A stretch of DNA of 64,000 bases from Diadema antillarum (lineage: Eukaryota): positions 186,001 to 250,000 of the forward strand of contig NW_027271101.1 in NCBI RefSeq assembly GCF_040938485.1, given 5' to 3'. Made by a program: the position numbers. Of this stretch, positions 12,740 through 15,700 are shown piece by piece. How positions within the stretch are numbered: position 1 is the stretch's first letter; every line of letters starts with the position of its first letter.

Positions 12740-15700
12740 CAGTTGCTCTGTTTTACAATGTCTTACTGAATAACACTTTGTATGATTTGTAACGTATTAA
12801 TGATTTCTCTACAATGTTGTCTACGTTACAATCTTTGAATTTCTTGGCTGTGATGTTTCGCTTTGGTCTTACTCTTAGTTTAGATCTTCTAATAATACAT
12901 ACACTGTCACTGTACTGTCATAAATATATGTACTGGTATAGTGGTAAGTGCTAAAAAGCGACACTGAGTAAAGCGACGACAGTGCATAATGAATTCAATG
13001 CACTGCACTGCGTGTCTGTAAACGGAAACTGTATCATACGGCGGCATTCCTCGTGAATTTGAGCTCATGGCCCCATCGACAAAAAAAGACACGGCAACAA
13101 AATAATGAACATTGTAATCATACTTGCCTGCATCAGCAAACTTAGAGTCGAGTCCAATCTATAGTAGTATAGAAAACTGCTACGGATATATGCGCGGGTA
13201 GCCCGGTTCGTCATCGCATCATACTACGGGTAAGTAGATCAAGGACTTTTGCTTGCATCCATAGCCATGTCATGCACATCATCAACACACAGACCGCAGG
13301 GTCGCAGGGGACCGAATCAGCCGTGGGACCGTTCCAGCGGTGCGCGTACGCGTGTGCTGACCGTGGACCGCAGTACAGCAGTAGTAGTGCATGGGAAGAA
13401 GTCGGCCAGTGATATAGACGTGCGCGAGCCCGCGGAAATCAACATTGTGACAGTGCGGTCAGTGGTAAGACAATCGCTTTCGTTCATAAATATTACATTT
13501 TCATCATTCAATGCCTGAATTCTCAGGCAACGGATCCTTCCACATTATAGATTTTATACGGTAGCAAAAGACAATCCTGGAATGCCCTAGAAAGGGCTAT
13601 GAACTACAAGAATCTAGGGGATACTTCTATGCCCCTAGGCTAAGTCCCACATAATGCTTTTTCGTGTTACTACTATTAGGCCATGCCCATAGACTGTAGT
13701 GTAGGTCTAAAATAACTAACAGTTAGATTCTAGATCCTCTATACACAGCCCAGTCGCTGTATAAATAGCGACGCGGCTGTACCGTCACGAAATTAGGAAA
13801 ACATATCAGTTCGGGAAACCCACTCACAAGGGGGGCCCCTCCTTATAAGTAACCCGTCCCCCTTATAAGTAACCCCGTCCCCCTTATAAGTAACCCCCGG
13901 GGCACCCCTTATAAGGAGTCTCCACGCTTTTTTGCAATGCAACGCGAAAATGAAAGGACTGCGGCAATTCGCTTGATTATGTCCATAAAGCTTCACAAGT
14001 TTCCTAGTTACTCACGAAATTTGAGCAAAATCGGTTCGAGGCATCATATCTAAAATCATGGATTTAAATGCGATGTCAAACGACCCATGCGAATGCTGAA
14101 ATGCGAGCGATTACTGGCGTGAGTGTCGCCAGGCGCGCCGGGCGGCAATGCTTGAGTGCAGACGTGGCGACTGAGTACCGGTACATGTACTCAGTCGCCA
14201 CGTCTGCACTCAAGCATTGCCGCGCCGCCGCGCCTGGCGACACTCACGCCAGTAATCGCTCGCATTTCAGCATTCGCATGGGTCGTTTGACATCGCATTT
14301 AAATCCATGATTTTAGATATGATGCCTCGAACCGATTTTGCTCAAATTTCGTGAGTAACTAGGAAACTTGTGAAGCTTTATGGACATAATCAAGCGAATT
14401 GCCGCAGTCCTTTCATTTTCGCGTTGCATTGCAAAAAAGCGTGGAGACTCCTTATAAGGGGTGCCCCGGGGGTTACTTATAAGGGGGACGGGGTTACTTA
14501 TAAGGGGGACGGGTTACTTATAAGGAGGGGCCCCCCTTGTGAGTGGGTTTCCCGAACTGATATTGATGGTAAATGTTCTCAGTGCAGTACATTAGAAACA
14601 TTTCCTCCTAAACACTTTTAGAATTTTTAGAAAGAATGTCCGGGTTCCACTAACTGCGACCAGCCCCAACGACAACGTGCAGCGCAGCGTGTTGGGGCTG
14701 TGCCGTTTTCGCATTCAGATCTTAATGTTGTACAAAAAGGATGCCGTTCCGGCGCTATATTTCCTTAATTTTTCAACAAAAACTACTAGGAATACTTACA
14801 TGGGTCGATTAAACCTGAATGATTCAAATCGGTGACTGTTCGATGCATTTCGTTACTTATGATGCAGAAAATGTTGTCTTATAACTAAGGCTAATTATCT
14901 TCAGCTCACCGATGATCACTAACGTTGCATGTTAGCCTTTTGTCAAGGCCCTCTCGCTGTAACGGACGAGCGAAGGGACGAGCGAAGCGAGTCGCGCTAC
15001 CTTACTCGGCTGGGCTCTCTACACCATACAGCGAAAGGGCCTTGACAAAAGGCTACGTATTACTCGCTACATGCATAGATGCTTGCTAATGGATATACAC
15101 GTTCAAAATGGTAGCACGGCTCTCCCACTAGGGCAGGCCGCTTACTCCTAAAAAATGTGGAAAATTTTGCAGTTTCCAGATAAATTGGTGAAAAGAACCA
15201 AGGCAATGGGGTAATGTATATTTCATTTTTTATTGTCACTGTGTTCATGATGGAAATTTACCCATGATTTATTCGTGAAGTCGCCGTATGTGGCAATAGG
15301 GAGTTGTTCGTGATTCTCACTTTAGCGAAACTGCGAGGTAGCCGCCAGGACCCCGCCGCATCATAGCGGTGCGGTCTCTGGGGCTAGGGTTCCACCAAAG
15401 ATTATACAGAAATCAGTTGCAAAGTTATCTTTGAGTAAGTAATCTTACTATAGGTAATATATTGAATCATCCTGAACAAAAATATATCATTTGTTTTGTT
15501 AGATGCACTGGTAAATATTGGATATTATAGTTTGTATTGATATGTTATGGAATAGCATGCATAATGATAAAAGTGCCCGGTGTGTATGCCTTAAAACCAA
15601 AATTTGTTTCAGGTTGACAGCAATTTGTTTTGTTTTAATAAACCACAAAAATAAAGTTATTCATGCTAATATTTGCCGGGAGCTGTTGCGCAGCAAGGGC

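What the first reader, a model, noticed from the sequence alone, without database searches (positions are those of the whole stretch)
13803..14563. 761-bp near-perfect palindrome with modular subterminal repeats
Seen: arms of about 376 bp that are identical except for one small bubble, an 8-nt loop, ATAT (or TA) at both outer ends, and four CCTTATAAG motifs (palindromic TTATAA core, 20-25-bp spacing) per arm. Established: long palindromes with short spacers extrude cruciforms and are unstable, and modular subterminal repeats typify Foldback-type elements as transposase binding sites. Inference: a very young foldback element, or one homogenised by arm-to-arm conversion. If it lies in the minus gene's 5' UTR intron, the pre-mRNA would form about 370 bp of dsRNA (an ADAR or Dicer substrate).
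Basis: partly seen in the sequence, partly recalled or inferred. Interest (0 to 1): 0.65.

Follow-up and report, generated by a model that had tools for sequence, protein, structure and literature searches.

The report
Young palindromic transposon copy in sea urchin
The 761-base near-perfect palindrome is real and is a recently inserted, non-coding "jumping gene" copy from a repeated family in a sea urchin genome, which is an ordinary kind of element whose only unusual feature is how alike its two halves are.

Summary
Window 13803-14563 is a palindrome with 376/377-nt arms that differ by one substitution and one single-base indel. It has an 8-nt loop, ATAT on both sides, and four CCTTATAAG motifs per arm.

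The window comes from the sea urchin Diadema antillarum.

The arm is not unique. A translated arm frame finds 11 unnamed public contig ORFs in 9 clusters, at 75-94% identity. In the eight of these ORFs that read past the terminus, similarity stops exactly at the palindrome's terminus and the flanks then differ. This makes it one copy of a dispersed, non-coding, terminal-inverted-repeat transposon family.

The 21-nt subterminal repeat block is invariant across copies, while the neighbouring sequence varies. That fits transposase binding sites.

The ATAT flank and the A..T pattern at 9 of 12 ends fit the 4-bp AWWT/AWDT target of Sola transposons. They do not fit Foldback (8-10 bp) or Tc1/mariner (TA).

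The arms are far more alike than those of other palindromic elements in the window (about 80%), so a young insertion is favoured.

No minus-strand gene was found. The element lies 3.4 kb upstream of the plus-strand ANAPC4 start codon.

Verdict: ordinary in kind, a new family member.

The parts
13803..13806 (.). ATAT left flank; candidate 4-bp target-site duplication (or TA within it)
   Evidence: It is identical to the right flank 14560-14563, and complementarity ends just outside it.
13807..13840 (+). Terminal 34 nt of the left arm, starting CAGTTCGGG
   Evidence: The 21-nt terminal string occurs only at the two ends of the element in the window. Family similarity in other contigs stops here.
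13841..13916 (+). Left subterminal repeat block: four CCTTATAAG motifs, 20/21/25-nt spacing, 21-nt unit
   Evidence: It is invariant in the 10 aligned sequences (0 of 23 codon columns vary).
13917..14178 (+). Inner unique part of the left arm. The outer part, to about 14047, is shared with other family members; the inner ~130 nt are unconfirmed elsewhere.
   Evidence: tblastn of the public ORFs reaches 14047. The central ORF search found nothing.
14138..14142 (+). Left side of the only arm-to-arm difference (1 substitution + 1 single-base indel); the partner is at 14224-14228
14179..14186 (.). 8-nt loop CGGTACAT; a 6-nt asymmetry at an otherwise perfect centre
14187..14559 (-). Right arm, the mirror of the left arm, ending CCCGAACTG
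14450..14525 (-). Right subterminal repeat block (four motifs)
14560..14563 (.). ATAT right flank; candidate target-site duplication
18000..18110 (+). Context only: first coding exon of ANAPC4 (ATG at 18000), the nearest gene
   Evidence: Pfam ANAPC4_WD40 positions 1-19 in the ORF 17970-18116; translation and sequence.

Best explanation
Window 13807-14559 is one young copy of a non-autonomous, cut-and-paste (terminal-inverted-repeat) DNA transposon family of the sea urchin Diadema antillarum. Its two inverted repeats meet in the middle, which makes it a palindromic, foldback-like MITE. It encodes nothing. It would be moved in trans by a transposase that recognises the terminal ~34 nt and the array of four (in another copy five) 20/21-nt subterminal units with a CCTTATAAG core. 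The units are spaced about two helical turns apart (inferred binding sites). It inserted into an ATAT site in unique sequence 3.4 kb upstream of the ANAPC4 start codon. The ATAT duplication and the A..T flank pattern of other copies point to a Sola-type transposase (4-bp AWWT/AWDT targets), but this is the least secure step. The near-identity of the arms most likely means the copy, or its palindromic progenitor, formed recently. Shown: the palindrome, family membership, the boundary, the conserved repeat block, and the absence of coding capacity. Inferred: trans-mobilisation, the binding-site role, the Sola assignment, and the age.
For: Organism: an ORF at 49892-51172 is 100% identical to a D. 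antillarum protein.

Family: the 68-aa translation of the arm (13808-14011, minus) finds 9 clusters of unnamed contig ORFs at 75-94% identity, E 1e-12 to 3e-34. Two more members came from the cluster look-up, giving 11 sequences in all. In the window they match only the two arms.

Boundary: in the eight public ORFs that read past the terminus (P0005-P0009, P0012, P0015, P0016), similarity ends at ...CTG plus one A and the flanks then differ. The other three end in a stop codon before the terminus.

Conservation: the repeat block has 0 of 23 variable codon columns (0 of 230 cells). The adjacent inner sequence has 15 of 25 variable columns (29 of 233 cells).

Modularity: one copy has five motifs instead of four, and unit length is 20 or 21 nt.

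No coding capacity: all six ORFs of 55-88 aa inside the element were in the Pfam scan, with 0 hits.

Target: ATAT on both sides here. The first flank base is A at 11 of 12 ends examined. 9 of 12 ends are compatible with ANNT and with AWDT, and 7 of 12 with AWWT. AWWT/AWDT is called a hallmark of Sola1 (passages of PMC3845634), and AT-rich 4-bp duplications (AWWT; ATAT, AAAT, ATTT) are described for Sola2 (passages of PMC3627910).

Youth: the arms are 375/377 identical. The two other whole-length palindromic elements of the window have halves only 80-81% identical. Reported heterozygosity of the species is 2.52% (passages of PMC13511894). The flanks are unique in the window.
Against: No second copy lies in the 64-kb window, and no eukaryotic genome collection was available. 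Copy number, complete copies and true duplications at both ends of other copies were therefore not seen.

The flank test rests on codon-degenerate back-reading of one end per copy. 3 of 12 ends do not fit A..T.

The A next to CTG may be the last base of the repeat. In that case the duplication here would be TA, and 8 of 12 ends would not be TA.

The element's termini do not resemble the one Sola1 terminus I saw in print.

No transposase partner was found or could be searched for.

The search with the central ORF found nothing, so it is not shown that other members are palindromic through the centre.

The organism of the 11 public ORFs is unknown (one search gave no names).

The published assembly was polished with short reads (Racon). 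Such reads map to both arms and could have erased a few real arm differences.
Confidence: 0.75

Rival explanations
1. This is the same transposon copy, but old. Its arms are kept identical by repeated arm-to-arm gene conversion or hairpin mismatch repair rather than by recent origin.
For: The only two differences are 4 nt apart and lie 37-41 nt from the loop. That looks like one local event rather than scattered decay. Everything in which this copy differs from other family members (6-27% of residues) is present in both arms.
Against: The other two whole-length palindromic elements in the same window have halves only 80-81% identical, so no general homogenising process is evident in this genome. 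The copy-specific states could have been inherited from a palindromic progenitor. CpG content gives no clock, because the flanks are also undepleted (observed/expected 1.10 against 0.93-0.98).
Confidence: 0.15
2. Sequencing or assembly artefact. Either the palindrome was created by a foldback chimeric read, or its perfection was created by short-read polishing.
For: The published assemblies come from about 11x HiFi per haplotype with ONT patching and Racon polishing with Illumina reads (passages). Reads from one arm map equally well to the other arm.
Against: Both flanks are distinct and unique. Both ends of the palindrome fall exactly on the family boundary defined by independent public contigs. 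A chimera breakpoint would not do that twice. The arms keep one substitution, one indel and an asymmetric centre. Polishing could only affect the count of arm differences, not the existence of the structure.
Confidence: 0.04
3. In-situ inverted duplication. A single half-element or ordinary local sequence was copied back on itself by snap-back or template-switch replication.
For: Short-spacer palindromes can arise this way (passages of the review PMC7999016). The centre contains GTAC three times at 6-nt spacing, a possible microhomology.
Against: Such an event would carry flank sequence into the palindrome up to an arbitrary breakpoint. Here complementarity ends on both sides at the family terminus plus the same ATAT.
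Confidence: 0.04
4. A co-opted hairpin-RNA or regulatory element. Transcribed from the ANAPC4 upstream region or a 5'-UTR intron, it gives ~370 bp of dsRNA that feeds Dicer or ADAR, or its TTATAA-core repeats act as host factor sites.
For: The predicted RNA hairpin is extremely stable. It lies 3.4 kb upstream of the ANAPC4 ATG in a CpG-undepleted stretch, with donor-like sites on the plus strand at about 13229 and 13464. Palindromic MITEs have become small-RNA genes elsewhere (Made1/mir-548, PMC1784062; search listing and start of the abstract only).
Against: There is no expression data. There was no Rfam match in the window. The putative plus-strand exon 13267-13464 has no relative among 1.84 billion representatives. 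A copy this young is unlikely to be fixed, let alone co-opted.
Confidence: 0.06

Closest known systems
Non-autonomous Sola elements (e.g. Sola1_NA MITEs of Bombyx/Rhodnius; Sola2 elements of dictyostelids)
   Same: Short non-coding elements with terminal inverted repeats. 4-bp AT-rich target duplications of the form AWWT/AWDT (ATAT is listed explicitly for Sola2). Passages of PMC3845634 and PMC3627910.
   Different: Their inverted repeats are 12-36 nt, not 372 nt. The printed Sola1 terminus (GGACCG...) is unlike CAGTTCGGG. No Sola transposase partner was seen here. 3 of 12 ends do not fit the target pattern.
Foldback elements (Drosophila FB, Tetris; sea urchin TU elements)
   Same: Very long inverted repeats that make up most or all of the element, with tandem sub-repeats inside them and no coding capacity in most copies (passages of PMC4079207). 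TU elements of Strongylocentrotus are recalled from memory; I saw only the citation.
   Different: Foldback/Tetris duplications are 8-10 bp, and most are assigned to Mutator. Here the duplication is 4 (or 2) bp. The tandem block here is only about 75 of 376 nt per arm.
Palindromic MITEs (human Made1; C. elegans PAL families, the latter recalled)
   Same: Each half is the reverse complement of the other. They form a single long hairpin and are dispersed and non-coding. Made1 gave rise to mir-548 (PMC1784062; listing and start of abstract only).
   Different: Made1 is recalled as about 80 bp and tied to a mariner transposase with TA targets. This element is 753 bp, and TA is not conserved (4 of 12 ends).
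Long short-spacer palindromes as fragile sites (e.g. human PATRRs, inverted Alu pairs in yeast)
   Same: Arm length of hundreds of bp, near-identity and a spacer under 12 nt. These are the features said to raise hairpin/cruciform formation and breakage (passages of PMC7999016; PMC1851657, listing only).
   Different: Those are not mobile-element copies with target duplications. Fragility of this locus is not tested. The sequence is 50% G+C, not AT-rich.

Membership tests
MITE / non-autonomous TIR DNA transposon | Terminal inverted repeats | tested here: met
   372-nt arms, 375/377 matching including ATAT.
MITE / non-autonomous TIR DNA transposon | No transposase or other coding capacity; under 800 bp (definition in passages of PMC5199201) | tested here: met
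   753 bp. The longest internal ORFs are 55-88 aa, and all six were scanned with 0 Pfam hits.
MITE / non-autonomous TIR DNA transposon | Flanking target-site duplication | tested here: met
   ATAT (or TA/AT) directly repeated on both sides of this copy. Only one copy was seen with both ends.
MITE / non-autonomous TIR DNA transposon | Many dispersed copies of similar size with different flanks | tested here: inconclusive
   11 public ORF sequences in 9 clusters, with differing flanks in the eight that read past the terminus. Genome copy number and copy sizes could not be measured. There is no other copy in the window.
Sola superfamily (non-autonomous member) | 4-bp target duplication with AWWT/AWDT preference | tested here: inconclusive
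   ATAT here. 9 of 12 ends are compatible with AWDT, 7 of 12 with AWWT, and 3 of 12 are incompatible. This comes from codon-level reading of single ends.
Sola superfamily (non-autonomous member) | Termini matching a known Sola family (Repbase rule: same duplication length and positions 1-11 with at most 1 mismatch; passages of PMC4455052) | not testable with these tools
   Repbase is not on hand. The single Sola1 terminus seen in print does not match.
Sola superfamily (non-autonomous member) | Autonomous partner with a DDD Sola transposase sharing the termini | not testable with these tools
   There is no eukaryotic genome collection, and none lies in the window (Pfam scans show only a reverse transcriptase).
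Foldback-type elements (FB, Tetris, TU) | Long inverted repeats containing tandem sub-repeats | tested here: met
   The tandem part is small (about 75 nt per arm).
Foldback-type elements (FB, Tetris, TU) | 8-10-bp target-site duplication (Mutator-like) | tested here: not met
   The 8 nt outside CAG/CTG are AAACATAT on the left and ATATTGAT on the right. Only 2 or 4 nt repeat.
Tc1/mariner-derived MITE | Invariant TA target duplication | tested here: not met
   TA is possible at only 4 of 12 ends, and only if the repeat starts at TCAG. Strict TA is stated for pogo.
Helitron-type element | 5'-TC ... CTRR-3' ends, insertion between A and T, no inverted termini (recalled definition) | tested here: not met
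   TCAG...CTGA between A and T fits this copy only by symmetry. 3 of the 10 right-type ends have a purine after CTGA, and both left-type ends lack the A. That is 5 of 12 failing (read). The element is a full palindrome.

The most novel reading that the evidence does not exclude
The family is a previously undescribed echinoderm lineage of Sola-type (or unclassified 4-bp-target) transposons whose members are full palindromes kept perfect by hairpin-templated repair at each transposition. This copy, sitting in the ANAPC4 upstream region or 5'-UTR intron, would be transcribed into a ~370-bp hairpin RNA that yields endogenous small RNAs against the family.
Probability: 0.1. Interest if true: 0.5.

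Novelty: new member of a known kind. Interest (0 to 1): 0.25.

Why it matters
It gives a clean, datable example of a very recent DNA-transposon insertion in a keystone reef species whose genome is 43% repeats, 30% of them unclassified. If the family is still active it is a ready presence/absence marker for population work. It is also a test case for how a 750-bp short-spacer palindrome survives in a germ line. The invariant 21-nt repeats give a concrete binding-site candidate for finding the transposase. Otherwise it is ordinary repeat annotation.

Tried and rejected
Self-BLAST of one arm against the window with word size 7 found nothing beyond the two arms above chance.

BLAST of the 600-nt flanks found them unique, so there is no paralogous empty site in the window.

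An Rfam scan of the whole window at gathering thresholds gave 0 matches.

Pfam scans of ORFs, done exon by exon and never joined:
- 137 ORFs of at least 55 aa in 1-20 kb gave 0 hits.
- 113 ORFs of at least 62 aa in 20-47.8 kb gave a reverse transcriptase and ANAPC4 pieces.
- 81 plus-strand ORFs of at least 28 aa in 12.9-23.9 kb gave ANAPC4 exons at 17970-18116 and 19435-19578.
- 97 minus-strand ORFs of 33-54 aa in 1-19.9 kb gave 0 hits.

The putative plus-strand exon 13267-13464 had 0 hits at E up to 0.001 against 1.84 billion representatives.

The central ORF 14068-14307 found nothing in the 5.8-billion-protein set: 1 candidate, none scored.

The cluster look-up of the public ORFs returned no names and no accessions, and their origin was not pursued.

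Literature:
- Search for sea urchin + foldback + transposon found 1 paper, on Drosophila.
- Search for 'TU elements' + S. purpuratus found 0 papers.
- Search for 'modularly structured' found 2 unrelated papers.
- Search for MITE + sea urchin found 12 papers holding the terms (11 listed), none by title about a sea-urchin MITE.
- The two Diadema genome papers have 0 occurrences of 'transpos', 'MITE' or 'palindrom'.
- Four papers were not held. This includes the paper that defined Sola, so its target and terminus data were seen only second-hand.

Rejected classifications are Foldback, Tc1/mariner, Helitron, hAT/Mutator/P (no 7-10-bp duplication) and PIF/Harbinger (no 3-bp duplication); see the membership table.

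An argument I dropped: that symmetric copy-specific substitutions prove arm conversion. With only one arm per other copy, and with CpG sites involved, the direction of change cannot be set.

Not used, as irrelevant to a non-coding eukaryotic repeat: the bacterial genome, phage, plasmid and E. coli collections, and the structure and complex predictors.

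Full report
**The observation.** Reading 13600-14800 and the inverted-repeat finder confirm a 761-nt palindrome at 13803-14563. A global alignment of the 376-nt left arm with the reverse complement of the 377-nt right arm differs in 2 of 377 columns. These are one C/G substitution and one single-base indel, 4 nt apart, at about 14138-14142 / 14224-14228. The loop is CGGTACAT (14179-14186). Read closely, the centre is GAGTAC-CGGTAC-ATGTACTC, a perfect palindrome broken by one 6-nt block. 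Complementarity ends immediately outside ATAT on both sides.

CCTTATAAG occurs 10 times in the window counting both strands, and all are inside the element. The expected number is 0.37, and 0 of 100 shuffles reached 10. The four motifs per arm are spaced 20, 21 and 25 nt apart. Tandem Repeats Finder calls a 21-nt unit with 2.8-3.4 copies. Hairpin energies are far beyond shuffles: z is -85 as DNA and -71 as RNA. The description is accurate and is not chance.

**Where the window comes from.** CpG is depleted over much of the window. The ORF 49892-51172 (minus) is 100% identical to an uncharacterised protein of the sea urchin Diadema antillarum and 56% identical to a Lytechinus protein. The contig is therefore sea urchin, not human. 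Two N runs (23277-23573 and 27497-27691) were left as they are.

**Gene context.** The D. antillarum protein has a harmonin N-terminal domain and three PDZ domains. It maps to the minus strand from 47850 to beyond 63967, so its 3' end lies 33 kb from the palindrome.

I scanned ORFs exon by exon against Pfam and made no joined model. On the plus strand there is an ANAPC4 gene. The ORF 17970-18116 matches ANAPC4_WD40 positions 1-19, 19435-19578 matches positions 18-51, and 23599-23883 matches positions 52-90. ORFs 28779-29057 and 29608-29856 match the ANAPC4 domain. The first coding exon starts with ATG at 18000 and ends at a GTGAGC donor near 18110.

The palindrome ends 3.4 kb upstream of that ATG. 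No minus-strand ORF in 1-19.9 kb matched any Pfam family. A tempting plus-strand ORF in the CpG-rich stretch at 13267-13464 has no relative among 1.84 billion representatives. Whether the element lies in a 5'-UTR intron of plus-strand ANAPC4 or upstream of its promoter cannot be told here.

**It is a member of a dispersed family.** No other copy lies in the window and the flanks are unique there. No eukaryotic genome collection was available, so I translated a stop-free frame of the arm (13808-14011, minus, 68 aa) and searched the large protein set, which includes ORFs called on short public contigs. It returned 9 clusters at 75-94% identity (E 1e-12 to 3e-34), all from unnamed ENA contigs of 526-2884 bp. 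The cluster look-up added two members and gave no names or accessions. I did not try to trace their origin, so the species they come from is unknown.

Mapped back, these sequences match only the two arms, out to 14047 / 14319. Eight of the 11 ORFs read past the terminus. In each of them similarity stops at ...CCCGAACTG plus one A, and the sequence that follows differs from copy to copy. P0012 and P0016 share a flank and are probably one locus seen twice. The other three ORFs end in a stop codon before the terminus. Both ends of the palindrome are thus the ends of a mobile unit. This also makes a chimeric-read artefact or an in-situ snap-back duplication very unlikely, because neither would end twice at the family boundary.

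**The subterminal repeats behave like functional sites.** In the alignment of the window copy with nine public sequences, the 23 codon columns covering the repeat block never vary (0 of 230 cells). The adjacent inner 25 columns vary in 15 (29 of 233 cells). The terminal 15 columns vary in 2 among the copies that keep the frame.

The search seeds on shared words, which favours conserved stretches, and the cells are not independent. Even so, the contrast is large. Copies also differ in module number: one has five motifs, the others that cover the block have four, and the outermost unit is 20 or 21 nt. A conserved array of sites spaced about two helical turns apart next to the terminus is what transposase binding sites look like. 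That role is inferred, not shown.

**Which kind of transposon.** Here the element is flanked by ATAT/ATAT. No 3-bp or 7-10-bp direct repeat is possible.

I back-read the codons that follow the terminus in the public ORFs and added the two window ends and two second termini, giving 12 ends in total:
- The first flank base is certainly A at 11 of 12 ends.
- 9 of 12 ends are compatible with ANNT and with AWDT.
- 7 of 12 ends are compatible with AWWT.
- TA at positions 2-3 is possible at only 4 of 12 ends.

Passages of PMC3845634 call AWWT/AWDT targets 'a hallmark of the Sola1 transposons'. Passages of PMC3627910 describe 4-bp AT-rich duplications (AWWT; ATAT, AAAT, ATTT) for Sola2. Foldback elements such as Tetris give 8-10-bp duplications and are mostly placed with Mutator.

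I therefore file the element as a foldback-like, palindromic non-autonomous TIR element with a probable Sola-type target. It is not a Foldback-family member and not Tc1/mariner. The Sola assignment is a lead at roughly 35-40%. It rests on one complete copy plus degenerate single ends. The termini do not match the one Sola1 terminus I saw. The founding Sola paper and Repbase were not available.

**Young or homogenised.** The arms are 99.5% identical. This copy differs from its nearest public relatives at 6% of residues and from the farthest at 27%. The two other whole-length palindromic elements of the same window have halves only 80-81% identical. These are 1130-1765, which has TA flanks and a (GT)n centre, and 19960-20481. 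Reported heterozygosity is 2.52%.

The simplest reading is a very recent insertion, or a recently formed palindromic progenitor, which would probably be polymorphic in the population. In-situ conversion is not excluded. CpG content gives no clock, since the flanks are undepleted too.

One caveat applies. The published assemblies were polished with short reads that map to both arms, so a few true arm differences could have been smoothed away. I do not know which assembly version the window comes from.

**Stability and function.** A review states that longer, more similar arms and shorter spacers raise hairpin/cruciform formation and breakage (passages of PMC7999016). By those criteria this is a high-risk sequence. 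The 6-nt central asymmetry and the nearby bubble are the kind of change that lowers the risk, but that link is my inference. Transcription, small RNAs and editing are untested. Palindromic MITEs have become small-RNA genes elsewhere (PMC1784062, listing only).

**Unexplained.** In two public ORFs (P0005, P0008) the frame leaves one family terminus and, after 75 or 44 nt, enters a second terminus reading inward. The two spacers are related to each other. One spacer has a weak match (9 of 12 residues, E 0.16) to the terminus of the other palindromic element family of this window. The three ends that do not fit the A..T target all belong to this locus type. Nested insertion into another repeat, or a composite arrangement, could explain this.

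The search with the central ORF found nothing. It is therefore unknown whether other members share the inner ~130 nt of each arm and the centre.

**What stayed unchecked.** Several things could not be checked:
- genome-wide copy number
- complete copies of other family members
- the autonomous partner
- raw reads
- the other haplotype
- the orthologous site in other Diadema species
- any expression data

**Verdict.** This is a real, well-described structure and an ordinary kind of element: a palindromic non-autonomous DNA transposon. It belongs to a family for which I found no description in the held library (searches; for the genome papers). It is notable only for its youth and its length.

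Noticed in passing
window 17970-29856 (+): ANAPC4 (anaphase-promoting complex subunit 4) gene on the plus strand. The first coding exon has its ATG at 18000. Further exon ORFs lie at 19435-19578, 23599-23883, 28779-29057 and 29608-29856. Both N runs (23277-23573, 27497-27691) lie inside this gene and were left untouched.
   Followed up: partly
window 47850-63967 (-): A gene for a 1384-aa protein with a harmonin N-terminal domain and three PDZ domains (whirlin/harmonin-like), 100% identical to a D. antillarum protein. 16 collinear tblastn segments mark its exons, and its 5' end runs off the window.
   Followed up: partly
window 20924-22653 (-): A reverse-transcriptase ORF (RVT_1, E 2e-37) of a retroelement sits between ANAPC4 exons 2 and 3, on the opposite strand.
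   Followed up: no
window 1130-1765: Another whole-length palindromic MITE-like element, with TA on both sides, termini CCGGGTGTCCC... and a (GT)n/(GC)n centre. Its halves are about 80% identical.
   Followed up: partly
window 19960-20481: A third palindromic element (208-nt arms 90% complementary; halves 81% identical) directly upstream of the retroelement. Related fragments lie at 43168-43234 and 43424-43475. Its terminus weakly resembles the spacer next to family copies in two public contigs.
   Followed up: partly
window 31520-32341: A long array of an 18-nt tandem repeat (about 45 units, 92-96% alike). It gives open frames of 241-311 aa on both strands with no Pfam match.
   Followed up: no
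window 39614-40212: Four tandem copies of a 158-nt unit (90-95% alike).
   Followed up: no
window 9359-10273 and 11220-11613: Several collinear blocks repeated 1.6 kb apart at 86-91% identity. This is a local segmental duplication or two copies of an unclassified repeat.
   Followed up: no
window 8001-16000: CpG observed/expected is 0.84-1.0 here, against 0.28-0.7 elsewhere. This suggests an unmethylated stretch around the ANAPC4 upstream region. Strong plus-strand donor-like sites lie at about 12944, 13229 and 13464.
   Followed up: partly
window 14933-15055: A small 123-nt inverted-repeat element (29-nt arms, 97% complementary) lies 370 nt to the right of the palindrome.
   Followed up: no
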